A DNA stretch of 64,000 nucleotides from Acidimicrobiales bacterium (lineage in GTDB: Bacteria; Actinomycetota; Acidimicrobiia; Acidimicrobiales; VFJN01). Both the position numbers and the translations under genes were made by a program. Under the pieces are notes generated by a model. It did not search any database and had not been told where the DNA came from. It saw only the letters and a program-made list of their open reading frames with translations. This document shows, in pieces, positions 24,838 through 35,353 of this stretch (its first letter is position 1; each line of letters begins with the position of its first letter). Where the stretch lies: contig JBOGHK010000015.1 of assembly GCA_050744325.1 (NCBI GenBank), positions 11,998 to 75,997 on the forward strand, in the 5' to 3' direction.

Positions 24838-25620
24838 TCAACTCACCTCGAAGGTGTAGGGGTCTTCCTCGTCTTCGGCCACGCTGCCGTCCTCGTTGAG
24901 GATCTCGGCGCCTTCGACCTGGGCGGTCACCGTGTAGTCGCCACCGCCACAGCCGTCGACGGTGTAGCCCACGATCTCGACCTGGTACTCGCCGAGCGGC
25001 ATGTCGCCCTCGGCCCAGAACACGTTCTCGACCGAGCCGTCGTTCTCGCAGCCGATGTTCGAGTCGACGTCGAGCTGTCCCCCGGTCGCCGTCGGGCCGG
25101 TGTCGCCGAACCAGATCTCCGTGCCGTCCGGCTCGGTGACGTGGAGGTCGAGGTCGGCGTCGGACTCCCAGCGCAAGGTGATCTGCACGTCGCCGGTGCC
25201 GAGCTCGGGCTCCGGCTGCGGCTGCGGCTCGTCGCAGTCCTCGTCGGGCTCGTCGCTGTCCTCGGACGGATCGTCCACATCGTCGGACGGGTCGTCGGAG
25301 CCGTCGTCCACATCGTCGGACCGGTCGTCGGAGCCGTCGTCCACATCGTCGGACGGGTCCTCCGTGTCGTCGGACGGCTCGTCGGTGACAGCGGGTGGAT
25401 CGTCCATCCGCTTGAAGGCCCAGATCGGCGGGTCGCTGCACGCGTCGCTGTCCTCGCCCGTCGACGGCTCCGTGAGCTCGTCGTCGTCGGTCGTCGTCGT
25501 GGACGGGTCGTCGGGGGTCGTCGTCGTCGCACTGCTCAGCACGCTGCCGTTACCGTCCGAGCACGCCCCCGCGACCAACACCCCCACCGTGACCACAACC
25601 GCAATAGCGCGCGTCCGCAT
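24838..25620 (-). CDS. Lipoprotein with acidic tandem-repeat linker and conserved C-terminal beta-rich domain of unknown function
   Basis: Lipobox LVAGAC. Three repeats of DDVDDGSDD(R/P)S. C-terminal domain QITLRWESDADLDLHVTEPDGTEIWFGD...CGGGDYTVTAQVEG. Start at M22 (MRTRAIAVVV). Confidence 0.65.
   Translation of the reverse strand: MRTRAIAVVVTVGVLVAGACSDGNGSVLSSATTTTPDDPSTTTTDDDELTEPSTGEDSDACSDPPIWAFKRMDDPPAVTDEPSDDTEDPSDDVDDGSDDRSDDVDDGSDDPSDDVDDPSEDSDEPDEDCDEPQPQPEPELGTGDVQITLRWESDADLDLHVTEPDGTEIWFGDTGPTATGGQLDVDSNIGCENDGSVENVFWAEGDMPLGEYQVEIVGYTVDGCGGGDYTVTAQVEGAEILNEDGSVAEDEEDPYTFEVS
25273..25385 (-). repeat. 33-nt in-frame tandem repeat (about 3.4 copies) inside the lipoprotein gene
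   Basis: gtccacatcgtcggac(g/c)ggtcgtcggagccgtc is repeated head to tail. Confidence 0.75.
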
Positions 25621-25760
25621 ACCGGCCATCGTGGGACTGCGGATGCAACGGAGCATCGGGGCAATCCCCCAATCACCCCACACCGCCCCGCTGGTGGTGG
25701 AGATCGGCGGGACTCAGTGGTCGCCGGCGAGTGCGACGACCGCCCGGCTGTGGAGGAGGG

Positions 25761-28700
25761 TCATCGCTGGTCACCGCCAGAGCGAGCGTCGTCGTCCGTC
25801 GACAGAGCGTCGCGCAGGTCGCCCAGGCGGTCGCCGATCAGACCGAGCTGGCCTGCCACCCTGGTCATCGGATCGTCGTCGCGCCCGAGGGCCTGCACCC
25901 GTGTGAACGAGCGCTTGACCTGCTCCCATCGCTCGGCATCCTGGCCGGACTGCCGACCCCGCAGCTCGGCCAGCTTGAGCAGGTTGTGCTCGGCGCCGGT
26001 GGTCAGCGTCTGGGCCTCGGACCGGTAGTGGTCGTCGACCAGCGCCTCGACCTCGGCCGTGGTCATCCCGGGCACGACCCGTTCGACCAGCTTGTTCATG
26101 TTGCGGTAGCTGCCCTGCAGCAGGAACGGCGGCTCGGAGCGGTAGGCGTCGTCCTGGCTTGCCGAGGCGATGTAGGCGTCGTTGACGGTCGTCACCACCT
26201 GCTGGATCGACCGGAGCGTGCCCAGCACGGACAGGACGTCGCCCAGCTCGACCGACGAGTAGTGGTGGCCGAGCCGATCGGCGGGGATGTCGTCGCCGCC
26301 CACCATCCGCAACAGCAACGGCACGTCGTCGAGGTCCCGCCCGGCCAGCGGCGCCAGCACCGGGTTGGCGGTGAGGGCGTTCTCGACGTAGCTCAGGGCG
26401 AACAGGTCCTCGCGACCGGTGAGCACGTCACCGAGGTTGTAGACATCGGCCCGGTTGGCGAGCATGTCAGGCACCCGGAACCGCTTGCCGGACTCGGTGT
26501 AGGGGTTGCCGGCCATGCACACGGCGAACCGCTTGCCCCGCAGGTCGTAGGTGCGGGTGCGACCTCGCCACACGGCCTCCATGCGGCGTTGGGCATCGCA
26601 CAGCGAGATGAACTTCTGCAGCAGCTCCGGGCTGGTGTGCTGGATGTCGTCCAGGTACAACAGCACGTTGTTGCCCATCTCCAGCGCGAAGCTGACCTTC
26701 TCGACCTCCTGGCGGGCGGTGGCGTTCGGGGCTTCGGCCGGGTCGACCGAGGTCACCCCGTTGCCCAGCGCTGGGCCGTTCACCTTCACGAACACCAGGC
26801 CAAGCCGACTGGCGAGGTACTCCATGAGCGTGGTCTTGCCGTAGCCGGGCGGCGAGATCAGCAGCAGCAGCCCCATCTGGTCGCTGCGTCGGCCGGCGCC
26901 GACCGTGCCGAGCTGGCGGGCCAGGTTGGCCCCGACCAGCGGAAGGTAGACCTGGTCGACGAGGTGGTTCCGCACGAACGCGCTCATCACCTTGGGACGG
27001 AGCTCGCCGATCCGCAGGCGCCGGCGCGCGTCGTCCAGCACCCGCTCGCGGGCCTGCACCCAGCGCCGGAAGCCAGGGACCCGGCCGTGACGGAACCGGC
27101 TGGTCCGGTCGAGGATCTCGTCCAGCCGCAGCGCCAGGTTGCCTCCCTCGATGCGGGGATGCTGGGCGACCAGCCCGGAGACCGTGACCGTCCGCAGCGC
27201 CGACGATGTGGTCCGTGGAAGCGTCGAGCCCTCGGTGAGGATCAGGACCGTCGCCTCGTCGACGTCGGGCGCCAGAGCGGTGACCTCGGGGTCGTCGCTG
27301 GCGTCGACCAGGCCGCGCAGCCACGCCTCGACCAGCTGCCAGCGGGCATCGAGCGAGCCGAGCGCCGCCAGGTCGGCGGTGAACGCCCGGCGCTGGCGGG
27401 TGGCGCGGAGATGGGACCACAGCGCATCACGCAACCGGACCGCCTGGCCGCTCGTGGCGAAGCTCAGCGTCGGCTGCCCCAGCTCCTCGAAGAGGTAGGC
27501 CGCGGCGGCCCGGGCGTCGTCCGGGTGGACCTCGATCCCGCCAGCGACGACCGACCCAGGCCGCTCGAAACTTGGTGAAGACCGACCGGAATCCGGCGGT
27601 CCTTCACCAGATTTCGCAGCAGGATCGGTCAGGAACCGGGTCAGGCCCGTGGCCATCTCGGCCTGGAACTGTTCGATCGCCGCGGTCGAGCCGAAGGATG
27701 CCCGGAGCCGGGCCAGGCTGCGCGCCCGGTGCTGCCACTCGACGCGCAGCGGCTCGTCGGCGCACAACCCCCAGAACACGCAGGCCAGGGCCCGGGGCCG
27801 AGGTGGCCAGCGCAGCAGTTCGGCGCCCTGGTAGGCGAGCACCAGCTGATGCAGGATCAGCGCAGCGTCGTGGTCGTGGACCCCGCGCTCGTAGCCCTCG
27901 TCGTAGCGGTCGGCGGCATAGCGCTGGACCAGCTCGAGCTGGCCCCCGGCACCAGCAGCGGCCGCTGGCGCAGCGGCCGCTGCCAAGGCGTCGATCGTCA
28001 GACCGGCCTCACCTCGCTCGGCATCCGTCAGCATCGCGGTCGCCAGGAACTCGGCCCGGTACACCTCCCCGGTCTCCGACACCAGCGCCTGGCCCCAGTA
28101 CGGCTCGGTGCCCGCGAGCGCCTCGCGCGACGCTGGGTCGTCGTCGAGCCGCTGGCGGAAGTCGGTGCCGGTGACCGCCAGGTCGAGTCGCCCCTCCCGG
28201 GGCACCAGGGTCAGGTCCACGGGCTGGGTGTTGACCGTGAAGCGGTGGTCGCCCAGGCGGATGACCTCGGCGCCGTCCTCGAACAGGTCGTGGCGGTCGC
28301 GCAGGGTCCGCCCCGCCTCTTGGCGGGCGGCGACCAGCCGACCCTCCAGCTCGTCGGCCCGGACGCCGTCGGCCACGGTGCGCAGCCGGTCGACGATGTC
28401 GCGCAGCCGGTCGACCATCGGGTCGGCGACGAAGTACGCATTGACCTCGTCGAGGCTGCCGAGCTGCGCGACCCGCCGCGCGATGGTCTCCAGCACCCGC
28501 TCGCCGTTGGCCATCAGCCGGTCGGCCTGACGCTGGCGCTCGTCCAGCAGGGTCTGCTTGCGGGAGCTGAACGCCTCGTAGACGTCGTCGCGCCGGGTGG
28601 CCAAGGCGTCGAGGTGCGCTTCGACGTTCCCGAACCGTGACTCGAGCCCTTCGAGGCGCGCCAGCAGCTGCGACAGCTGGGAGTCGCAGTCGTCCGGGGA

Positions 28701-30968
28701 TCCCGCCAGCGCCAACCCCGTCGACACCGCCTCGGTCAACAGTGCCATCTGGGCCGCGAACTCGGCGGCGCTCTCGCTGGTGGCCAGCTGCCGACGCCAC
28801 CCCTCGGCAACGGCCCGCGCCCGGTTGACCGCCGCGAGCACCTCGGACACGGCCTGCAGGACCCGGGTCCGCTCGGTCGGGTCGTCGATGCGCAGGCCCT
28901 CGACGACCTCGGTCAGCAGGGCCATCTGCTCAGCGACGACGGTCAGATCGGCCACAGCCGCCATCACCAGCGACGCGGTGCCTGCTGCCTCGGCCGCGGC
29001 CTGCAGGTCGGCGACCCGGGTCAGGTACGGGGCGAACGCGCCGTCGGCCAGCACGAACTCGACCATCTCGCCGGCCAGGGCATCGAAGGCTTCGGCGACA
29101 CGGGTCTCGACCGCCGTGATCCGCTCCAGGTCGGCGTAACGCATGTCGCGCAGCGACACCAGGCGTCCGCGCTGGCTGCGGAGCCGCCCGAGCCCCTCGA
29201 CGAAGCTCTGGACGTCGGAGCGCTCGGCACCGCCGAGCTGGCGTCGCAGACTCGCGAAGTCGGTCTCCGCCGCCTCGGTGGCCTCGACGGCCTCGCGACG
29301 CAGCGCGTCGACCTTCTCGAACTCGTCGATGACCAGCTCGGCCGTGGCGTGCAGCTCGCGCAGCGGGCTTCCCAGCTCGCCGACCTGCGGATCGTCGAGC
29401 CAGTGGTGGGCGTCGCCGAACCGCTCGGCCCGCGCCACCAGCTCCTCGTAGGACGCCATCGACGGCGCCTGGTCGGCGACCAGCCGCTCGATCGAATAGG
29501 CGTCGCTGATCGCCCGCACCAGCTCGGCGTTGCCCACCACGTGGAGGAACGACGACCCTGCCTCCTGGCCCGCCTCGACGGCGTGCTCGTCGGAGGTGAA
29601 CGGGGTCCGCCAGATCTGCATCGGGTGGATGCGACTTGCCTCGCCGTTCTCGGCCCGGAACAGCACCAGCGTGCCGTCGTCGTAGAGGGCGTAGCCGTTG
29701 CACACGACCTGTTGGGCGACCTGCTTGGTGATCAGGTTGTAGGGCAGCAGGTTGGTACGGCCCTCGACCCGCTCGTGGAACACGTAGAGCACGTCCTCGC
29801 CGTTGGGCGACCGGCGGGCCTCGACGAAGATCATCGACTCGGATGCGACGCCCTCGAAGGTCTTCTGCGCCCCCGTTGCCAGGTAGTAGCCCCCGGGGAA
29901 GATCAGCCCGTGGTCCTCGGGGAGCTGCTGGCAGGCCCAGCCGATCGCGTCGACCCGGTCGACCTGTCGGGTGCGCCGGTTGAAGACCAGGTGCCGCCAG
30001 GCCCGCTCCTTGTAGGGGCGGACCCGCAGGAGCAGCACTCCACCGACGTCGGCGAAGGCGATGTCGGCGTCGGCCAACGACTGGGTCGGCTGCTCGACCG
30101 GCTCGGAGTAGATCCCCTCGCCCGTCTCGGTGTTGTCCTCGACCTTGATGGTCAGGTCGCCACGGGTGGTCTCGACGAAGACCTCGTCGCCCACGTTCAC
30201 GTGCGGGAAGCGACCGCCGACGTGCTGGTCGCGGGTGGTCTCGGTCCACTCGAAGTCGTGGGCCGGCGGGAACACGTGCTCACGCTCACCCCGGTCGTCG
30301 ATGTAGCGCACCGCACCGTCCGGCCCGACGGCCCAGCGGAACACCTTGAGGTCGCCCACGGCTCGACCGGTCTGGAACACAGCCAGCAGGCGACCCTCGA
30401 CCCGCCGTAGCTGCACCAGCTTGGTGTTCTTGTAGTAGCGGAACAGCTCGCCGAAGTCGGCGGCGAAACGGGCGTCGCTCAGGAAGTTCGCGGGATCGTC
30501 CGCGGCTACCGGATGCAGCTCGAAGTCCTCGCCCCTGCCGTTGCCGCCGGCCGGCCGCCTCAGGCGGTACAACCCGAGGACGTCTGCCACCTTGGTCTCC
30601 GTGCGGAGGCCGATGAACACGTTGTATCCGAACAGCAGCAGGTCGCCGACGGTGACAGCGTCGCGGGGCACGCAGTTGTTCTCGGTGCGGATCCGCGCGC
30701 GGCCCACCAGTGCCATCTCGGACGTGCCGAACGCAGCCAGGCGCGCCTCGTTGAGCCGGTTGGCGCGGGCAGCGAGGTCGCGGGCCTGCTCGGCCAGTCG
30801 GGAACGCAGCAGCTCGTAGGTCCCGGTCCCCCGCGGGACGCTGGCGGCCGAGACGACCACGCCAGCCCCGTCGCCCTCGTCGCTCGCCTCGGCGACCGGT
30901 TCCGGTGCCGACGCGCCTGCTTCTCCACCAGGGGTCACCGGATCGGCCGGATCATCGCTCTGCGGCAT
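25761..30968 (-). CDS. Giant (1735-aa) multidomain protein with an N-terminal domain of unknown function, a long alpha-helical middle region and a C-terminal AAA_5 (MoxR/midasin-type) ATPase module
   Basis: Walker A SPPGYGKTTLMEY (about nt 26829-26846), Walker B LLYLDDIQH, AAA_5 sensor/Arg region VCMAGNPYTESGKRFRVPDMLANRA. Start 11 nt downstream of the flotillin stop. Confidence 0.8.
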   Translation of the reverse strand: MPQSDDPADPVTPGGEAGASAPEPVAEASDEGDGAGVVVSAASVPRGTGTYELLRSRLAEQARDLAARANRLNEARLAAFGTSEMALVGRARIRTENNCVPRDAVTVGDLLLFGYNVFIGLRTETKVADVLGLYRLRRPAGGNGRGEDFELHPVAADDPANFLSDARFAADFGELFRYYKNTKLVQLRRVEGRLLAVFQTGRAVGDLKVFRWAVGPDGAVRYIDDRGEREHVFPPAHDFEWTETTRDQHVGGRFPHVNVGDEVFVETTRGDLTIKVEDNTETGEGIYSEPVEQPTQSLADADIAFADVGGVLLLRVRPYKERAWRHLVFNRRTRQVDRVDAIGWACQQLPEDHGLIFPGGYYLATGAQKTFEGVASESMIFVEARRSPNGEDVLYVFHERVEGRTNLLPYNLITKQVAQQVVCNGYALYDDGTLVLFRAENGEASRIHPMQIWRTPFTSDEHAVEAGQEAGSSFLHVVGNAELVRAISDAYSIERLVADQAPSMASYEELVARAERFGDAHHWLDDPQVGELGSPLRELHATAELVIDEFEKVDALRREAVEATEAAETDFASLRRQLGGAERSDVQSFVEGLGRLRSQRGRLVSLRDMRYADLERITAVETRVAEAFDALAGEMVEFVLADGAFAPYLTRVADLQAAAEAAGTASLVMAAVADLTVVAEQMALLTEVVEGLRIDDPTERTRVLQAVSEVLAAVNRARAVAEGWRRQLATSESAAEFAAQMALLTEAVSTGLALAGSPDDCDSQLSQLLARLEGLESRFGNVEAHLDALATRRDDVYEAFSSRKQTLLDERQRQADRLMANGERVLETIARRVAQLGSLDEVNAYFVADPMVDRLRDIVDRLRTVADGVRADELEGRLVAARQEAGRTLRDRHDLFEDGAEVIRLGDHRFTVNTQPVDLTLVPREGRLDLAVTGTDFRQRLDDDPASREALAGTEPYWGQALVSETGEVYRAEFLATAMLTDAERGEAGLTIDALAAAAAPAAAAGAGGQLELVQRYAADRYDEGYERGVHDHDAALILHQLVLAYQGAELLRWPPRPRALACVFWGLCADEPLRVEWQHRARSLARLRASFGSTAAIEQFQAEMATGLTRFLTDPAAKSGEGPPDSGRSSPSFERPGSVVAGGIEVHPDDARAAAAYLFEELGQPTLSFATSGQAVRLRDALWSHLRATRQRRAFTADLAALGSLDARWQLVEAWLRGLVDASDDPEVTALAPDVDEATVLILTEGSTLPRTTSSALRTVTVSGLVAQHPRIEGGNLALRLDEILDRTSRFRHGRVPGFRRWVQARERVLDDARRRLRIGELRPKVMSAFVRNHLVDQVYLPLVGANLARQLGTVGAGRRSDQMGLLLLISPPGYGKTTLMEYLASRLGLVFVKVNGPALGNGVTSVDPAEAPNATARQEVEKVSFALEMGNNVLLYLDDIQHTSPELLQKFISLCDAQRRMEAVWRGRTRTYDLRGKRFAVCMAGNPYTESGKRFRVPDMLANRADVYNLGDVLTGREDLFALSYVENALTANPVLAPLAGRDLDDVPLLLRMVGGDDIPADRLGHHYSSVELGDVLSVLGTLRSIQQVVTTVNDAYIASASQDDAYRSEPPFLLQGSYRNMNKLVERVVPGMTTAEVEALVDDHYRSEAQTLTTGAEHNLLKLAELRGRQSGQDAERWEQVKRSFTRVQALGRDDDPMTRVAGQLGLIGDRLGDLRDALSTDDDARSGGDQR

Positions 30969-30979
30969 GGCTCAGGCCC

Positions 30980-33022
30980 TCAGGAGCGAGAGATGTCGCC
31001 GATGCGGACGTCGCCGATGCCCAGCTCCTTGGCGCGGACGAGGAGCTGGTTGAGGCGCTCGCGGCCCTCGGCCTCGCCATTGCCGCCACCATCGGTGTCG
31101 GTCTCACCGCCGCGGGCCAGCATCCGGGTCAACAGGGCGGTCAGGGTCAGGTCGCGGAGCCCCTCCGTCGGCAGGTCGGCCAGCACCTGGCGGATGTCGG
31201 CGGGCAGGTCGCGTGAGCCGTCGAGGTAGCCGCCGAGCAGGGCCTGCGCGGTGGACGAGTGCTCGATGGCGCCGTCGACCGCCTTGCCCATCGTGATCGC
31301 ACCAGCCAGGCGGTCGAAGAAGACCGCGTCGCCGCCGATGATGTCGATGTCGGCCCGCTCCAGGCCCTTGGCGATGACCTCGGCCTGGCTCTCGGCGACC
31401 TGGCGCCGGGCCTCGATCTCGGACAGCTGCACCTCCTTGAGCGCGTCGATGCGCATGCGGTACTCCTCGTGGCCGCGGCTCGACTCGTCGAGAGCCTGCA
31501 TGGCGGTGGCCTTCTCGCTCAGGCCGTTGGCCTCGCCGAGCAGCCGCGCCTCCAGGGCCGCGCCCTCGGCGGCACCGATCTCGCGGGCCACCTTCGCCTG
31601 GACCAGCCCCTGGGCCTCGGTGGCCTCGGCGTCGGCCTGCTTGACCTGGACGTCGGCCAGGCCCGCCGCTGCGGACTCGGCCTGGATGCCCTCCGCCAGC
31701 CGGATCTTGGCCCGGGCAGTCAGGTCGGACGACTGCAACTCGGCCTCAGCCAGCTTGATCTGCTCCGCGGCTCGGTGGATCGCCGACTGCTCGGCGGCCT
31801 CAGCCGCTTTGATGTCCTTGACCAGCGCTTCCTGGGCCTGCGCCTCGGCGGCGATGATCACCGCTTCCTTGTCGCGGTTGGCCTCCTCGACGGTCTGGAG
31901 GCGCTTGATCGCCTCCTCCTGCTCGACCACGGTCTTGTCGACCGCCACCCGTTCGCGCACGACGTCGGCGATGTTGCGCTTCTCGACCTCGACCTCTTTG
32001 TCCTTCGCGATCGTCTGCAGTTCGACCTCGCGATCGCGGGCGATGACCTCGAGCTGGCGGTCCTTCTCGATGCGCTCCTTCTCGACGGCTACGACCCGGT
32101 CACGGTTGAGCGATGCGACCGCGACCTCGCGCTCGAGGTTCTGCTGCTGGACGCCGACCTGCTGGTCGGTGGTTAGACGGGCGGATTCATGCTTGAGCCG
32201 TTCCTCGGCCTGGATGCGCAGGATCTCCGCGCTCTCCCGCGCCCTGACCGTCTCGATCTCGCGATTGGCGCGTGCTTCGGCATCGGCCTGCTGGCGCTGC
32301 AGTTCGAGGATCGCCTCGGTCGCCTCGACGTCCTGCTTGGTGATCTGCTTGCGCTCGGTGTTGCGGTATTCGTTGGTCCGTACGGCCTCGACCGCGGTGA
32401 GCTCGGTGATCTTGCGGATGCCCTGCGCGTCGAGGATGTTCTTCGGGTCGAGCGCCGAGACCGGGGTCTGCTCCAGATAGTCGATGGCCGCGTCTTCAAG
32501 CACGTAGCCGTTCAGGTCGGTGCCGATGACGTTGATGATGTGGTCGCGAAACTCGTTGCGTTTGGTGTAGAGGTCGACGAAGTCGAGTTGCTTGCCGACG
32601 GTCTTGAGCGCCTCGGCGAACTTCGCGTTGAACAGCTCGTCGAGCGTGAGCCGGTCCGAGGCGCGGGCGCAGCCGATCGACTGCGCGACCTTGATGACGT
32701 CCTCGGCGGTCTTGTTGACCTTCACGAAGAAGGTGACCTTGATGTCCGCGCGGATGTTGTCGCGGCAGATCAGCCCTTCGGCGCCACGTCGGTCGATGTC
32801 GATGGTCTTGACCGAGATGTCCATGATCTCGGCCTTGTGGACGATGGGCAGCACCACCTGGCCCGTGAAGGTCACCTTCACGCTGCGCATGGTGCTGATG
32901 ATCAGGGCCTTGCCCTGCTCCACCTTGCGGTAGAGGCGCGTCACCATCCACAACGCCCCCACGAGGACCAAAGCCATCACGATCGCCACGACGATCACGC
33001 CACCCGCCAGCACGTCAGACAT
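30980..33022 (-). CDS. Flotillin-like SPFH/Band-7 protein (FloT/YuaG-type, long form)
   Basis: N-terminal TM helix VIVVAIVMALVLVGALWMV, SPFH domain, long EA-rich coiled-coil and a C-terminal flotillin region. Start at M95 of the listed ORF (ATG 33022, ggagag RBS). Confidence 0.85.
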   Translation of the reverse strand: MSDVLAGGVIVVAIVMALVLVGALWMVTRLYRKVEQGKALIISTMRSVKVTFTGQVVLPIVHKAEIMDISVKTIDIDRRGAEGLICRDNIRADIKVTFFVKVNKTAEDVIKVAQSIGCARASDRLTLDELFNAKFAEALKTVGKQLDFVDLYTKRNEFRDHIINVIGTDLNGYVLEDAAIDYLEQTPVSALDPKNILDAQGIRKITELTAVEAVRTNEYRNTERKQITKQDVEATEAILELQRQQADAEARANREIETVRARESAEILRIQAEERLKHESARLTTDQQVGVQQQNLEREVAVASLNRDRVVAVEKERIEKDRQLEVIARDREVELQTIAKDKEVEVEKRNIADVVRERVAVDKTVVEQEEAIKRLQTVEEANRDKEAVIIAAEAQAQEALVKDIKAAEAAEQSAIHRAAEQIKLAEAELQSSDLTARAKIRLAEGIQAESAAAGLADVQVKQADAEATEAQGLVQAKVAREIGAAEGAALEARLLGEANGLSEKATAMQALDESSRGHEEYRMRIDALKEVQLSEIEARRQVAESQAEVIAKGLERADIDIIGGDAVFFDRLAGAITMGKAVDGAIEHSSTAQALLGGYLDGSRDLPADIRQVLADLPTEGLRDLTLTALLTRMLARGGETDTDGGGNGEAEGRERLNQLLVRAKELGIGDVRIGDISRS

Positions 33023-33078
33023 GTCTTGCTCTCCAGCTCTCGAACCACCCGGGACGCCACCCCCCGTGGTGAAGGGGT

Positions 33079-33762
33079 CTAGGGACCCGGTTCCGCCGTC
33101 CCAAGAACGTCGTCGACCGGGCAGACCACGAACACCTCCGCCGCGGGGTCGTAGTCGACGATAAGCGCAGACGACCCTCTGCGCAGGTCGGCCTCCTGGT
33201 CGGTGGGGCTCATCCGGACCTGGAGCAGCACCGTTGCACCGGAGCCGTCGGACGCCTCGGCCTGGCCGAAGCTGTCGGTGACCGTCGTCGTCCGGACGAT
33301 GCACGTGCGGCCGACGAACGCCTGCCGGCCTTCGGCCTCGGTGGAGGCGAAGAGCCGGGCCAGCGGCCGCGTGACCACCGACGCCACCAGCACCCCGGCG
33401 GCGAGGGCAAGGGCCAGCACCACCAGCCCGAGCAGGATCGCGGCGACGACCGGGACGTCGGCGGCGTTGGCCAGCCCGGTGCCGAGCAGGGCCACGAACC
33501 AGCCGCCGAGCACGACGACGCTCAGCGAGACCGTCAGCGGAACCCCGGCGAGGCCGAGCGAGTGCAGCACCCCGTCGCCGCCGACCCCGTCGCCGCCGGC
33601 ACCGCCGTCGGCAGCAACCTCGAGGTCGACCCCGTCGGCCCCGTCCAGGTCGACGTCGACCACCCCCACCAGAACCGTGACCCAGTAGAGCACCACCAGT
33701 CCCAACAGAACGGTGAAGAGAACGGCCGGAAAGCCGAGAGCAGCATCAAGAAACGCGTCCAT
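33079..33762 (-). CDS. NfeD-like membrane protein (YuaF-like flotillin partner with C-terminal OB fold)
   Basis: Multi-TM N-terminal half and a soluble C-terminal beta domain (IVRTTTVTDSFGQAEASDGSGATVLLQVR). Lies directly upstream of the flotillin gene, as in yuaF-floT operons. Confidence 0.7.
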   Translation of the reverse strand: MDAFLDAALGFPAVLFTVLLGLVVLYWVTVLVGVVDVDLDGADGVDLEVAADGGAGGDGVGGDGVLHSLGLAGVPLTVSLSVVVLGGWFVALLGTGLANAADVPVVAAILLGLVVLALALAAGVLVASVVTRPLARLFASTEAEGRQAFVGRTCIVRTTTVTDSFGQAEASDGSGATVLLQVRMSPTDQEADLRRGSSALIVDYDPAAEVFVVCPVDDVLGTAEPGP

Positions 33763-33852
33763 GGCCCGCAGCCCGGACGTTAGTCCTGCCCGCCCCCGAG
33801 CAGCCCGCGGCGTAGCGCCGCACACCCGCGAGATCTTCGACAGCCACCTAGC

Positions 33853-33876
33853 GGGAGGGGGACAAGTCCCCCTCCC
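33853..33876. other. Perfect GC-rich hairpin GGGAGGGGGAC-aa-GTCCCCCTCCC in the divergent intergenic region
   Basis: 11-bp perfect inverted repeat with a 2-nt loop and no T tract. It lies between the nfeD start and the HNH gene start. Confidence 0.6.
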
Positions 33877-34105
33877 GGCCTCCCCCGGCGCGAGTCCTCA
33901 CGGAGCAGCCGTGGGATTTCGGCCGCGCGCCCGGCCAGGGACGGGCCGCCAGGGTGGGTCTGGGTGTCGCCGCCACCGGCTGAGGGTCGTGTGGCGGGGG
34001 TTGTCAGGCTGGCTCGCCAGGGTCTTTCTTCCCGACGTGCGTGACCAGGACGTATGTTCGTGTGGTTGGCCGGGGTGGCGCGTTATGGTCCTCTAGTATG
34101 TTCAC

Positions 34106-35353
34106 ATGCCTGCAACGGTCTCTCAGGGCAAGACCAGTCATCCCGCCTCCCCGGTGTGGGCCGACGACGACACCCTCATCGCACGGCTCGCCCGCGTGGG
34201 CGCGGAGCTAGACGGTCTGGTCGACTACGACCTGGACGGGGTGGACCGCGGCGAGCTGGGTGACGCCCTGGTGGTGTCCCAGCAGCTCCGTGCCAAGCTG
34301 ACCGCGGTCGAAGCCGGGTTGGTGGGGTGTTTCGACGCGGCGCGGTCGTATCGGGCCGAAGGGTCCCGATCCACCGCCACCTGGCTGGCGCAGCGGTCCA
34401 ACACGCCCCGCCAGACGATCCAGGCGGTCGTTCGCCTAGCCCGCCGGCTCCGGAGCATGCCTGCGACGCGGGCGGCGTTAGGGGAGGGCCGGTTGGCACC
34501 GGAGCGGGCCGAGGTCCTGGCCCGCCAAGCCGGGTCGCCCCGCAAGCCCGTCGCGGACGCGTTCGTTGTGGACGAGGACGAACTCGTCGATTCGGCGGTG
34601 CAAGAGGGGTTCGGGGAGTTCTGCCGCCAGGTCGGTTATTGGCGTGACCGGGTCGATCCCGACGGCGGCGAACCTCACGCCGACAAGCTCCACGACCAGC
34701 GCCGCGTCCACCTCTCGCAGTCCTTCGAGGGCCAATGGTTCCTCGACGGGCTTCTCGAGCCCATCGCTGGCGAGGAGGTCCACGAATCGCTACGGCGCAT
34801 CTACGACGAGCTGCACCGCAGCGACCGCCGTGCTGCGGAGGCAATCCACGGCGAGGGCTGTGCGGAGGACCTACTAGCCCGGACGGCGCCGCAGCGCCGC
34901 GCCGACGCCCTGGTCGAGATGGCCCGCCGCGCCATGGCCGCCCCAGCCGGTTCACGCCAGCCGCGGCCCCTCGTTAGCGTGCTGGTGGGCTACGAGACCT
35001 TCCATGGCCCGGTCCGCGAGATGTTCAACCGCACCGTGCTCACCTCAGGCCAGATCGCCCGGCTGTTGACCGACGCCGACATCGAACGCATCGTGTTCGC
35101 CCCCGCCAGCCGCAACATCAGCGACCTCGGCCGCAAGACCAGATTGTTCACCGCGGCGCAACGCCGCGTCGTGGAGATCCGTGACCGCACCTGCTGGCAC
35201 CCCGACTGCGACGAACCCGCCGAGAGATGCGACATGGACCATCGGCCCCACGGATGGGCCGAAGGCGGCCGTACCGACATCTGCAACTGCCGCCCCGGCT
35301 GCCCATTGCACAACCGAGTCACCCCCAACACGGGCACTGACCCACCCACCTAG
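34106..35353 (+). CDS. DUF222 / 13E12-repeat-family protein with C-terminal HNH endonuclease motif
   Basis: Typical DUF222 N-terminal region (LVDYDLDGVDRGELGDALVVSQQLRAKLTAVEAGLV), a SDLGRKTRLFTAAQRRVV stretch, and HNH Cys/His residues (CWHPDCDEP...CDMDHRP...CRPGC). Possible leaderless start 6 nt after TAGTAT. Confidence 0.8.
   Translation: MPATVSQGKTSHPASPVWADDDTLIARLARVGAELDGLVDYDLDGVDRGELGDALVVSQQLRAKLTAVEAGLVGCFDAARSYRAEGSRSTATWLAQRSNTPRQTIQAVVRLARRLRSMPATRAALGEGRLAPERAEVLARQAGSPRKPVADAFVVDEDELVDSAVQEGFGEFCRQVGYWRDRVDPDGGEPHADKLHDQRRVHLSQSFEGQWFLDGLLEPIAGEEVHESLRRIYDELHRSDRRAAEAIHGEGCAEDLLARTAPQRRADALVEMARRAMAAPAGSRQPRPLVSVLVGYETFHGPVREMFNRTVLTSGQIARLLTDADIERIVFAPASRNISDLGRKTRLFTAAQRRVVEIRDRTCWHPDCDEPAERCDMDHRPHGWAEGGRTDICNCRPGCPLHNRVTPNTGTDPPT

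What the first reader, a model, noticed from the sequence alone, without database searches (positions are those of the whole stretch)
25761..33762. NfeD - flotillin - giant AAA_5 ATPase three-gene operon (candidate novel membrane-associated system)
Three co-directional genes are packed with 11-nt and 56-nt gaps. They encode an NfeD-like OB-fold membrane protein, a 680-aa flotillin with a long coiled-coil, and a 1735-aa protein. The large protein has an N-terminal domain of about 500 aa that I cannot place, about 750 aa of helical region, and a C-terminal dynein/midasin/MoxR-type AAA_5 module. yuaF(nfeD)-floT pairs are classical, but an in-operon fusion partner of this size and type is not part of any described flotillin system or catalogued defence/membrane-repair system that I can name. 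SPFH scaffolds and MoxR-class ATPases are both remodelling/chaperone machines. The association suggests an energy-driven membrane microdomain assembly or a stress or phage-response module.
Basis: partly seen in the sequence, partly recalled or inferred. Interest (0 to 1): 0.8.

Follow-up and report, generated by a model that had tools for sequence, protein, structure and literature searches.

The report
Flotillin operon with giant AAA+ ATPase
This is a real, strongly conserved three-gene membrane module (small membrane protein, flotillin scaffold, giant ATPase). It is the core of the already described Pseudomonas "bac" / PspA-associated flotillin operon, and nobody yet knows what the ATPase does.

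Summary
Three minus-strand genes lie 56 and 11 nt apart: a 227-aa protein with three predicted membrane segments (YqiJ/NfeD-like), a 680-aa YqiK-type flotillin, and a 1735-aa AAA+ ATPase.

The "unplaceable" N-terminus of the ATPase is Pfam DUF3686, predicted to be a beta-propeller. Three-helix bundles (including DUF7902) follow it, then one AAA+ domain with invariant catalytic residues.

The linkage is close to obligate. In 76 of 77 genome loci from Actinomycetota, Myxococcota, Acidobacteriota and Gammaproteobacteria the flotillin gene directly precedes the ATPase gene. In the reverse test, 58 of 66 flotillin-selected metagenome loci carry the ATPase.

The claim that no described system contains this trio is wrong. 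Ravi et al. 2024 described this operon and its "abbreviated" form without PspA. The window genes are orthologues of P. aeruginosa bacC-bacD-bacE (PA3730-PA3728; 31%, 48% and 48% identity). That operon is shown to be co-transcribed, and its genes and proteins rise under several stresses, phage infection among them.

The window is therefore a new member of a known but mechanistically unsolved module. My best guess is that the ATPase remodels the flotillin scaffold during envelope stress. The NCBI name "DNA repair ATPase" has no support.

The parts
33763..34105 (-). Upstream intergenic region between the divergent DUF222 gene (34106-35353, +) and the first gene of the cassette. It presumably holds the promoter. 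It contains a near-perfect palindrome, GGGAGGGGGAC-TTG-TCCCCCTCCC, at about 33845-33880.
   Evidence: Sequence read; gene calls. No sigma-70 consensus was found, as expected for a 70% GC actinobacterium. Function not tested.
33079..33762 (-). Gene 1: a 227-aa YqiJ/NfeD-like membrane protein (BacC type). It has three predicted TM segments (about aa 14-32, 76-94 and 108-126), an acidic loop after TM1, and a beta-rich C-terminal region (aa ~150-220).
   Evidence: 31% identical to P. aeruginosa PA3730/BacC, E 3e-22. hhalign to E. coli YqiJ gives 70% probability, E 3.9e-5. No Pfam hit for it or for 22 homologues. Directly upstream of the flotillin gene in 57 of 64 metagenome loci.
33023..33078 (-). 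56-nt spacer with a GGAGAG ribosome-binding-like motif 6 nt before the flotillin ATG.
30980..33022 (-). Gene 2: a 680-aa YqiK-type flotillin (BacD/PaFlo3 type). It has an N-terminal hydrophobic anchor (aa 9-27), an SPFH/Band_7 domain (aa 33-207), an Ala/Glu-rich coiled-coil region (aa ~220-520), and a conserved C-terminal region.
   Evidence: 48% identical to PA3729 over 636 aa.
32402..32926 (-). SPFH / Band_7 domain of the flotillin (aa 33-207).
   Evidence: Pfam PF01145, E 5.1e-10, 40.1 bits against a cut-off of 23.6, when the N-terminal 249 aa are scanned alone.
30969..30979 (-). 11-nt spacer between the flotillin stop (TGA) and the ATPase ATG. This suggests translational coupling.
25761..30968 (-). 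Gene 3: a 1735-aa soluble AAA+ ATPase (BacE/PA3728 type; NCBI name 'DNA repair ATPase').
   Evidence: 48% identical to PA3728 over 1666 aa. No convincing TM segment.
29403..30779 (-). DUF3686 domain (aa 64-522): an N-terminal helix followed by about 29 beta-strands, predicted to be a beta-propeller.
   Evidence: Pfam PF12458, E 1.7e-194. AlphaFold2 pLDDT about 85-95. Foldseek PDB hits are to propeller proteins (prolyl oligopeptidase, WD40, clathrin N-terminal domain, thiocyanate dehydrogenase) at E 1e-6 to 1e-3.
28331..29402 (-). Helical arm (aa ~523-880) made of three-helix bundles. It includes DUF7902 (aa 644-726, nt 28791-29039).
26892..28330 (-). Pre-AAA region (aa ~880-1359): a small beta subdomain (aa ~902-940) followed by conserved helical domains.
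   Evidence: AlphaFold2 model 2, pLDDT mostly above 90. Many invariant residues. No family assignment.
26424..26891 (-). AAA+ alpha/beta core (aa ~1360-1515). Walker A GYGKT is at nt 26832-26846 and Walker B LLYLDD at about nt 26646-26663. N1488 is the candidate sensor-1 residue. A beta-hairpin (aa ~1462-1475) lies between Walker B and sensor 1. R1506 is the candidate arginine finger.
   Evidence: These residues are invariant in 12 to 59 homologues. The roles assigned to N1488 and R1506 are inferred from their position in the model.
25764..26423 (-). Lid and C-terminal helical extension (aa ~1516-1735). It includes the invariant QGSYRNMNK motif, where R1622 is a candidate sensor-2 residue.
   Evidence: The role of R1622 is inferred.

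Best explanation
Identity. The three genes are the conserved core (BacC-BacD-BacE type) of the flotillin/AAA+ envelope-stress module. Ravi et al. 2024 found this module by comparative genomics. In P. aeruginosa it is embedded in the bacABCDEF operon (PA3732-PA3727).

Proposed working:
1. The 3-TM YqiJ/NfeD-like protein sits in the cytoplasmic membrane and pairs with the flotillin.
2. The flotillin is anchored by its N-terminal hydrophobic segment. Like other SPFH proteins, it oligomerises through its long coiled coil into a ring or cage that fences off a membrane patch.
3. The soluble giant ATPase is made in step with the flotillin (11-nt gap). It docks on the scaffold through its N-terminal beta-propeller and spectrin-like helical arm.
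4. It oligomerises through its single AAA+ domain and uses ATP hydrolysis to remodel the flotillin assembly or the clients held in it: loading, disassembly or recycling.
5. This happens during membrane stress.

What is shown: gene content, orthology, near-obligate linkage, domain architecture and intact catalytic motifs. In Pseudomonas, co-transcription and co-regulation are also shown.

What is inferred: every physical interaction, the oligomeric state, the substrate, and the direction of remodelling.
For: Identity:
- Orthology to PA3730, PA3729 and PA3728 (31%, 48% and 48% identity).
- In the P. aeruginosa locus the order DUF2170-PspA-213aa-688aa-DUF3686/AAA-PLD sits next to YaeQ, recJ and lasB.
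- The published description of this architecture matches (PMC11237479).

Linkage:
- 76 of 77 genome loci across at least four phyla have the flotillin gene directly upstream on the same strand.
- 58 of 66 flotillin-selected metagenome loci carry the ATPase directly downstream.
- No other gene is conserved across phyla.

ATPase competence: Walker A, Walker B, N1488, R1506 and R1622 are invariant.

Architecture:
- Propeller plus helical bundles plus AAA+.
- The flotillin is a bona fide SPFH protein related to YqiK.

Stress link:
- RT-PCR shows bacA-F are one transcript, and all Bac proteins rise together in a bacA mutant (PMC10948618).
- PA3728-PA3732 were up in all phage-infected samples in one study (PMC12041424) and up in a proteome study of an argA mutant (PMC13637947).
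- PA3731 accumulates after osmotic shock (PMC2587700).
- Gammaproteobacterial versions add PspA, a rhomboid protease and a phospholipase D, all of which act on membranes.

Precedent from established knowledge: SPFH cages work with an AAA+ machine in HflK/C-FtsH.
Against: - There is no experimental evidence on the ATPase anywhere.
- Deleting the P. aeruginosa flotillin (paFlo3) cut biofilm by only about 20% and changed nothing else that was tested (PMC13086221).
- The loop where threading AAA+ unfoldases carry an aromatic pore residue has none here (GPALGNGVTSVDPAEAPNAT). A Vps4/ClpX-style unfolding of flotillin is therefore not favoured, and the mode of remodelling stays open.
- About 11% of close flotillin relatives lack the ATPase, so the scaffold can work without it.
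- The OB fold of gene 1 and the C-terminal 'Flot' domain were not detected.
- No complex was modelled.
Confidence: 0.55

Rival explanations
1. The ATPase is a bacterial counterpart of Vps4. Its real substrate is a PspA/ESCRT-III polymer, encoded next door in Gammaproteobacteria and elsewhere in other phyla. The flotillin and the YqiJ-like protein only recruit it to the membrane.
For: DUF2170-PspA lies directly upstream in 10-11 gammaproteobacterial loci and in P. aeruginosa. Ravi et al. suggest that the abbreviated operons work with PspA encoded elsewhere. A review notes that bacteria lack a known Vps4-like regulator of PspA (PMC7619361).
Against: PspA is absent from the window (64 kb) and from all non-gammaproteobacterial loci examined. 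The flotillin, by contrast, is present in 76 of 77, so the invariant partner is the flotillin. The AAA+ domain is not of the Vps4 type: Pfam finds no MIT domain, a beta-hairpin precedes sensor 1, the best structural matches are RuvB, MoxR and MCM, and there is no aromatic pore loop.
Confidence: 0.15
2. The cassette is an anti-phage or anti-toxin defence system. The membrane pair senses envelope perturbation and the giant ATPase acts as the effector or switch.
For: PA3728-PA3732 were among 17 genes up in all phage-infected samples (PMC12041424). The distribution across distant phyla is patchy and consistent with horizontal transfer. Large coiled-coil ATPases are common in defence systems (general knowledge). 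Some versions carry a phospholipase D, a possible effector.
Against: No PADLOC model matches beyond P-loop noise (E >= 0.003). The core has no nuclease, protease or toxin domain. Neighbours in the window are housekeeping genes such as RNase HII, PPK2, MOSC and mannosidase. No defence genes recur in the flanks. Psp-type operons are induced by many stresses, not only phage.
Confidence: 0.1
3. The giant protein is a DNA repair ATPase, as its NCBI and Pfam name says, and its position next to the flotillin is incidental.
For: The name is carried by Pfam DUF3686 and by NCBI. There are weak P-loop matches to RuvB, and RuvB is the best Foldseek E-value (1.3e-5). recJ lies three genes downstream in P. 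aeruginosa.
Against: The linkage to two membrane proteins is near-obligate across phyla, so it is not incidental. No DNA-binding, nuclease or helicase domain was found. The RuvB matches are 17% identical and confined to the AAA+ core, and MoxR, MCM, spastin and Lon score similarly. No paper in the library mentions DUF3686 or links 'DNA repair ATPase' with flotillin. recJ adjacency is not conserved.
Confidence: 0.03
4. The ATPase is a MoxR-like chaperone that matures or inserts a specific membrane client inside the flotillin microdomain, rather than acting on the scaffold itself.
For: Pfam AAA_5 is above its cut-off. The highest target-normalised TM-scores are to the MoxR-class CbbQ and NorQ (0.55-0.60). 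There is no aromatic pore loop. JGI annotates some members as 'MoxR-like ATPase'.
Against: No VWA-domain partner, the usual MoxR companion, is found in the window or conserved in any flank. No conserved client gene accompanies the trio. The similarity to MoxR is no better than to RuvB.
Confidence: 0.15

Closest known systems
P. aeruginosa bac operon, bacABCDEF (PA3732-PA3727): Mace 2008 PMC2587700, Wallart 2024 PMC10948618. BacD is the same protein as PaFlo3 (PMC13086221).
   Same: Window genes 1-3 are orthologues of bacC, bacD and bacE, in the same order and orientation and with matching sizes (227/213, 680/688 and 1735/1746 aa). Identities are 31%, 48% and 48%.
   Different: The window lacks bacA (DUF2170/CesT-like), bacB (PspA) and bacF (phospholipase D). 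It is from an Acidimicrobiales MAG. The sigma-54 promoter proposed for bac cannot be assumed here.
PspA-associated band-7/flotillin + YqiJ/YuaF + AAA+ operons, and their 'abbreviated' forms (Ravi et al. 2024, mSystems, PMC11237479).
   Same: The window matches the abbreviated form: a flotillin-domain protein, a YqiJ/YuaF-type TM protein, and the AAA+ ATPase with a beta-propeller and coiled-coil N-terminus (checked).
   Different: None in kind. That paper gives no mechanism, no Pfam names and no quantified linkage. Here the linkage is measured at 76/77 and 58/66.
E. coli yqiJ-yqiK and B. subtilis yuaF-floT (NfeD-flotillin pairs).
   Same: Same two-gene logic and order. The window flotillin is 29% identical to YqiK. 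Gene 1 resembles YqiJ weakly.
   Different: The E. coli pair has no ATPase downstream; the sibD/ibsD locus follows. The window flotillin lacks a detectable Pfam 'Flot' C-terminal domain, which YqiK has.
HflK/C-FtsH (an SPFH cage around an AAA+ protease).
   Same: An SPFH scaffold is functionally coupled to an AAA+ machine at the inner membrane. This is an analogy from established knowledge.
   Different: The window ATPase has no TM segment and no protease domain. It belongs to a different AAA+ lineage and carries a propeller and a helical arm.
MoxR-class AAA+ (CbbQ, NorQ, RavA) and RuvB.
   Same: These are the nearest solved AAA+ cores. All have a beta-hairpin before sensor 1 and no aromatic pore loop.
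   Different: Identity is only 13-19%. There is no VWA partner and no RuvA/RuvC context. The large N-terminal extension is unique to this family. The DUF3686 domain search recovered 754 clusters at 50% identity.

Membership tests
BacCDE-type flotillin/AAA+ module (Ravi 2024 abbreviated operon; P. aeruginosa bac core) | A membrane-anchored protein with band-7/SPFH plus a long coiled coil | tested here: met
   Band_7 E 5e-10. YqiK 29% over 426 aa. 48% identical to PA3729. One N-terminal hydrophobic segment.
BacCDE-type flotillin/AAA+ module (Ravi 2024 abbreviated operon; P. aeruginosa bac core) | [quoted passage not shown] | tested here: met
   Pfam. AlphaFold2 models. Propeller-type Foldseek hits. 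48% identical to PA3728 over 1666 aa.
BacCDE-type flotillin/AAA+ module (Ravi 2024 abbreviated operon; P. aeruginosa bac core) | A 3-TM YqiJ/YuaF-like protein encoded directly upstream | tested here: met
   Three predicted hydrophobic segments. 31% identical to PA3730, E 3e-22. Weak match to YqiJ.
BacCDE-type flotillin/AAA+ module (Ravi 2024 abbreviated operon; P. aeruginosa bac core) | Same order and strand, with tight spacing, conserved across taxa | tested here: met
   Gaps of 56 and 11 nt. 76/77 genome loci. 58/66 and 57/64 metagenome loci.
Full bacABCDEF / CesT-PspA-flotillin-AAA+-PLD operon | A DUF2170 (CesT/Tir-like) plus PspA dyad upstream | tested here: not met
   The upstream gene is a divergent DUF222 gene. 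A PspA HMM search finds nothing in the 64-kb window. The dyad is seen only in gammaproteobacterial loci.
Full bacABCDEF / CesT-PspA-flotillin-AAA+-PLD operon | A phospholipase D (HKD) and/or rhomboid gene downstream | tested here: not met
   The downstream 272-aa ORF has no Pfam hit and is not conserved. tblastn with PLD and rhomboid queries finds nothing in the window.
Full bacABCDEF / CesT-PspA-flotillin-AAA+-PLD operon | Co-transcription as one mRNA | not testable with these tools
   Shown by RT-PCR only for P. aeruginosa PA14 (PMC10948618). In the window it is inferred from the spacing and from the lack of terminator-like sites at the gene junctions.
SPFH / flotillin family | Pfam Band_7 (PF01145) domain | tested here: met
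   40.1 bits against a cut-off of 23.6 on aa 1-249. Missed in the whole-protein scan.
SPFH / flotillin family | C-terminal Flot domain (PF15975), as in YqiK | tested here: not met
   No hit in aa 475-680 at E <= 10, while YqiK scores 6e-41. The region is conserved within the subfamily, so it may be a divergent version.
NfeD / YqiJ family | A match to the Pfam NfeD, YqiJ_N or YqiJ_OB models | tested here: not met
   No hit for the window protein or for 22 homologues at E <= 0.01. E. coli YqiJ hits both YqiJ models.
NfeD / YqiJ family | Remote homology and a C-terminal OB fold | tested here: inconclusive
   hhalign to YqiJ gives 70% probability, E 3.9e-5, across TM2-TM3 and the C-terminal domain. 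A profile search against the PDB gave nothing.
MoxR / AAA_5 (dynein-midasin related) ATPases | A specific match to AAA_5 that is better than to other AAA+ families | tested here: inconclusive
   AAA_5 26.9 bits, AAA 27.3, AAA_22 26.7. Foldseek: RuvB E 1.3e-5; CbbQ/NorQ TM 0.55-0.60; MCM, spastin and Lon are similar.
MoxR / AAA_5 (dynein-midasin related) ATPases | An associated VWA-domain partner gene | tested here: not met
   No VWA domain among the genes called within about 9-10 kb either side. No conserved extra gene in the flanks.
Vps4-type ESCRT-III disassemblase | An MIT domain, a classical-clade AAA domain and an aromatic pore loop | tested here: not met
   No MIT hit. A hairpin precedes sensor 1 and the nearest folds are RuvB/MoxR/MCM. 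The loop between strand 2 and helix 2 has no aromatic residue.
Catalogued anti-phage defence systems (PADLOC) | A match of any of the three proteins to a defence-system model | tested here: not met
   Only P-loop-level hits at E >= 0.003 for the ATPase, and none for the other two proteins.
'DNA repair ATPase' (NCBI / Pfam DUF3686 label) | Any DNA-binding or DNA-repair domain, or a DNA-repair gene context | tested here: not met
   No such domain. The context is membrane proteins in 76/77 loci. No literature.

The most novel reading that the evidence does not exclude
The BacE-type protein is the first dedicated ATP-driven remodeller of a flotillin/SPFH scaffold. Its propeller and spectrin-like arm grip the flotillin ring, and the AAA+ ring powers assembly, opening or recycling of the microdomain. 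This would give bacterial flotillins an energy-dependent cycle comparable to ESCRT-III/Vps4, through a machine unrelated to Vps4.
Probability: 0.3. Interest if true: 0.75.

Novelty: new member of a known kind. Interest (0 to 1): 0.4.

Why it matters
Flotillin and other SPFH scaffolds are found across life. No nucleotide-driven machine is known to control their assembly, and reviews note that bacteria lack a known Vps4-like regulator for the related PspA/ESCRT-III polymers.

This trio is strictly linked and spans several phyla. It offers a defined and tractable candidate for such control, and orthologues sit in genetically workable hosts (P. aeruginosa PA3730-PA3728, Streptomyces, Myxococcus).

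The work also corrects annotation. 'DNA repair ATPase' is unsupported. The flotillin and its partner go unlabelled in the precomputed Pfam annotation of the two loci looked up, because coiled-coil bias hides the Band_7 domain.

For this particular window, though, the finding adds one more instance rather than a new kind of system.

Tried and rejected
- Whole-protein Pfam, NCBIfam and PADLOC scans of the flotillin and of gene 1 gave nothing. Only the isolated N-terminus of the flotillin recovered Band_7.
- phmmer and profile searches of the flotillin and gene 1 against PDB sequences found nothing useful.
- hhalign of the flotillin profile against YqiK failed internally. BLASTP replaced it.
- Literature searches for 'DUF3686' and for 'DNA repair ATPase' with 'flotillin' returned no papers.
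- The eLife Arc paper turned out to be irrelevant: PA3729 appears there only as a background protein in a pull-down.
- I looked for a conserved fourth gene. The 272-aa downstream ORF, the DUF222 gene and all other flanking ORFs are not conserved beyond genus level.
- I considered and rejected a Vps4-like, an FtsH-like and a catalogued-defence identity (see the membership tests).
- I considered but did not run length co-variation or mirror-tree analyses of the flotillin and the ATPase. Shared phylogeny would confound them.

Full report
**1. The observation**

The window is 70% GC. Its giant protein is identical to one from an Acidimicrobiales MAG, GCA_973786215.1. Three ORFs lie head to tail on the minus strand:
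- 33079-33762, 227 aa
- 30980-33022, 680 aa from the ATG at 33022
- 25761-30968, 1735 aa

The spacers are 56 nt, with a GGAGAG motif before the ATG, and 11 nt. The only terminator-like hit on that strand is a weak one inside the first gene, at neither junction.

**2. What the three proteins are**

The giant protein matches Pfam DUF3686 (aa 64-522, E 1.7e-194) and DUF7902 (aa 644-726). It has one P-loop AAA+ domain, with AAA, AAA_5 and AAA_22 all near 27 bits. The N-terminal 500 aa are therefore placeable, although the family has no known function.

Two AlphaFold2 models were built from 59-sequence alignments, with mean pLDDT 85.5 and 87.4. They show:
- a disordered tail (aa 1-48) and a helix (aa 50-80)
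- about 29 beta-strands (aa 86-454)
- an all-helical region to about aa 880
- a small beta subdomain, further helical domains, the AAA+ core (aa ~1360-1515), and a lid with a helical C-terminal extension

The AAA+ core is nearest RuvB by E-value (1.3e-5). It is nearest the MoxR-class CbbQ and NorQ by TM-score (0.55-0.60). MCM, spastin and Lon score close behind, and all matches are at 13-19% identity. The core is therefore a separate AAA+ lineage. A beta-hairpin lies between Walker B and sensor 1. The loop where threading unfoldases carry an aromatic residue has none.

Walker A (GYGKT), Walker B (LLYLDD), N1488, R1506 and R1622 are invariant in homologues. The ATPase is therefore under selection to stay active. 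The roles I assign to N1488, R1506 and R1622 are inferred from their positions in the model.

The 680-aa protein gave no hit when scanned whole. Its first 249 aa alone hit Band_7 at 40 bits. It aligns with E. coli YqiK at 29% identity over 426 aa, E 1e-32. It has one N-terminal hydrophobic segment and an Ala/Glu-rich stretch of about 300 aa. The Pfam Flot C-terminal domain was not detected.

The 227-aa protein has three predicted hydrophobic segments and a beta-rich C-terminus. Neither it nor 22 homologues hit any Pfam model. hhalign to YqiJ gives only 70% probability. I therefore call it YqiJ/NfeD-like. The OB fold is not demonstrated.

**3. Is the association conserved?**

I examined the best 80 loci. 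They come from Actinomycetota, Myxococcota, Acidobacteriota, Gammaproteobacteria and one Clostridia-labelled MAG.
- In 76 of the 77 loci with enough upstream DNA, the flotillin gene directly precedes the ATPase gene on the same strand. The exception, L063, has it 6.4 kb upstream.
- tblastn found no YqiJ-like gene in seven of the 80 genome loci, and only a 32-aa match in an eighth. Four of the seven are cut by contig ends; two more carry a divergent Streptomyces version of the protein.
- Only these three genes are conserved across phyla.

I then ran the reverse test on 80 metagenome loci chosen by flotillin similarity.
- 58 of 66 with at least 600 nt downstream carry the ATPase directly downstream.
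- One has a 2.2-kb insertion before the ATPase gene.
- Seven lack it and have unrelated genes downstream.
- 57 of 64 have the YqiJ-like gene upstream.

The DUF3686 domain search recovered 754 clusters at 50% identity. In the full-length hits among the best 150 (about 1600-1900 aa) the domain sits at the N-terminus.

The ATPase is thus effectively never found without this flotillin. The flotillin is occasionally found without the ATPase.

**4. What is already known**

Ravi et al. 2024 (PMC11237479) describe operons that combine CesT/Tir-PspA with three further genes:
[quoted passage not shown] - a 3TM protein typified by YqiJ/YuaF

Some of these operons also carry a phospholipase D. The authors note that abbreviated operons without PspA are more widely distributed. 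The window is such an abbreviated operon.

I checked the link to P. aeruginosa directly. The P. aeruginosa homologue (P0279, 1746 aa) lies in the gene order DUF2170, PspA, 213 aa, 688 aa, DUF3686/AAA, PLD, YaeQ, RecJ, M4 peptidase. RecJ and the M4 peptidase are, from my own knowledge of the PAO1 map, PA3725 and lasB/PA3724. The ATPase is therefore PA3728 and the operon is bacABCDEF (PA3732-PA3727). The published sizes agree: PA3729 is 76 kDa and PA3730 is 23 kDa.

Window proteins are 31%, 48% and 48% identical to BacC, BacD and BacE.

Published data on that operon:
- RT-PCR across every junction shows a single transcript, and all Bac proteins rise 6- to 13-fold in a bacA mutant (PMC10948618).
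- PA3731 accumulates after osmotic shock, and its loss reduces biofilm, swarming and virulence (PMC2587700).
- PA3728-PA3732 were up in all phage-infected samples in one study (PMC12041424) and up in another proteome study (PMC13637947).
- Deleting paFlo3 (bacD) cut biofilm by about 20% and had no other effect among those tested (PMC13086221).
- PA3728 is listed among genes recurrently mutated in cystic fibrosis isolates (PMC8190622).

Nothing has been published on what the ATPase does. 'DUF3686' appears in no paper in the library.

Other gammaproteobacterial loci show the same extended form. Some also have a rhomboid protease gene between the ATPase and the PLD gene. The window and all non-gammaproteobacterial loci lack PspA, DUF2170, PLD and rhomboid.

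**5. How it most likely works**

These points are shown:
- a membrane pair (YqiJ-like protein plus SPFH scaffold) is encoded with a soluble, catalytically intact AAA+ protein carrying a propeller and a helical arm
- the linkage is near-obligate and the spacing is tight
- in Pseudomonas, the genes are co-transcribed and their products co-regulated

The rest is inferred, by analogy with SPFH cages that partner with an AAA+ machine (HflK/C-FtsH) and with NfeD-SPFH pairs. I propose that the flotillin forms an oligomeric scaffold with the YqiJ-like protein, that the ATPase docks through its propeller and arm, and that it oligomerises and uses ATP to remodel the scaffold or its contents during envelope stress.

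The missing aromatic pore loop and the RuvB/MoxR-like core argue for remodelling of a folded complex rather than threading.

I put about 0.9 on the identity (a BacCDE-type module). I put about 0.35-0.4 on flotillin-directed remodelling as the mechanism.

The rivals are:
- a PspA-directed Vps4 analogue. This is weakened because PspA is absent from most loci while the flotillin is always present.
- a MoxR-like chaperone for an unknown client. No VWA partner and no conserved client gene were found.
- a defence system. There is no PADLOC match, no effector domain in the core, and the neighbours are housekeeping genes.
- a DNA repair ATPase. This rests on the name alone.

**6. Verdict**

The feature is real and its conservation is striking.

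It is not new, however. The architecture is in the literature, and the orthologous P. aeruginosa operon has been studied, though not its ATPase.

For this window the finding is a new member of a known, mechanistically unsolved kind. Interest is moderate (0.4). The open and testable question is whether this family is an ATP-driven remodeller of flotillin scaffolds.

Noticed in passing
window 30980-33022; also L001 and L164: Whole-protein Pfam scans, including the precomputed annotations, show no domain for this flotillin subfamily. The isolated N-terminal 249 aa scores well above the Band_7 cut-off. Coiled-coil composition bias hides the domain, so these flotillins have no domain label in the precomputed Pfam annotation of the two loci looked up.
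   Followed up: yes
window 33079-33762 and 22 homologues (alignment A2): The YqiJ/NfeD-like partner family hits no Pfam model at all, although E. coli YqiJ hits YqiJ_N and YqiJ_OB. This is an unmodelled family, or a strongly divergent branch of one.
   Followed up: partly
L070 15181-16422; L164 11260-11952; L050, L059, L061, L064, L065, L067, L072: Gammaproteobacterial versions of the operon add a rhomboid intramembrane protease and/or a phospholipase D (PLDc_2) directly after the ATPase gene, and DUF2170 plus PspA before the YqiJ-like gene.
   Followed up: yes
window 33845-33880 (minus strand): [quoted passage not shown] It could be an operator or a transcript hairpin.
   Followed up: no
window 34106-35353 (+): A DUF222 gene is transcribed divergently from the cassette. 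From my own knowledge this family is often associated with HNH endonucleases in actinobacteria. It is not conserved next to the cassette elsewhere.
   Followed up: partly
L063 1521-3446 vs 10001; L143 8061-10307: Two loci have the flotillin and ATPase genes separated by insertions of 6.4 kb and 2.2 kb. The L143 insert ORFs have no Pfam hit.
   Followed up: partly
L102, L118, L133, L134, L136, L142, L150: Seven close relatives of the flotillin (47-55% identity) lack the ATPase. The downstream genes scanned in four of these loci are unrelated (TsaD, a tyrosine recombinase, a sigma-54 activator on the other strand, a Ser/Thr kinase). These are two-gene YqiJ-flotillin versions.
   Followed up: partly
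L004 7442-9508: The flotillin match in a MAG labelled Clostridia contains an in-frame stop codon. It may be a pseudogene, a sequencing error or a mis-binned contig.
   Followed up: no
window 28329-30968 (model m07b14b44767f): Several of the best Foldseek matches to the propeller-plus-helical N-terminal half are membrane-coat or transport-type proteins with the same two-part layout (clathrin heavy chain, IFT-A subunits). E-values are 1e-6 to 1e-4 and TM-scores are low. This could be convergence of layout only.
   Followed up: no
window 24838-25656 (-): A 272-aa ORF lies 104 nt downstream of the ATPase on the same strand. It has no Pfam hit and no conservation in other loci, so it is probably not part of the module.
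   Followed up: yes
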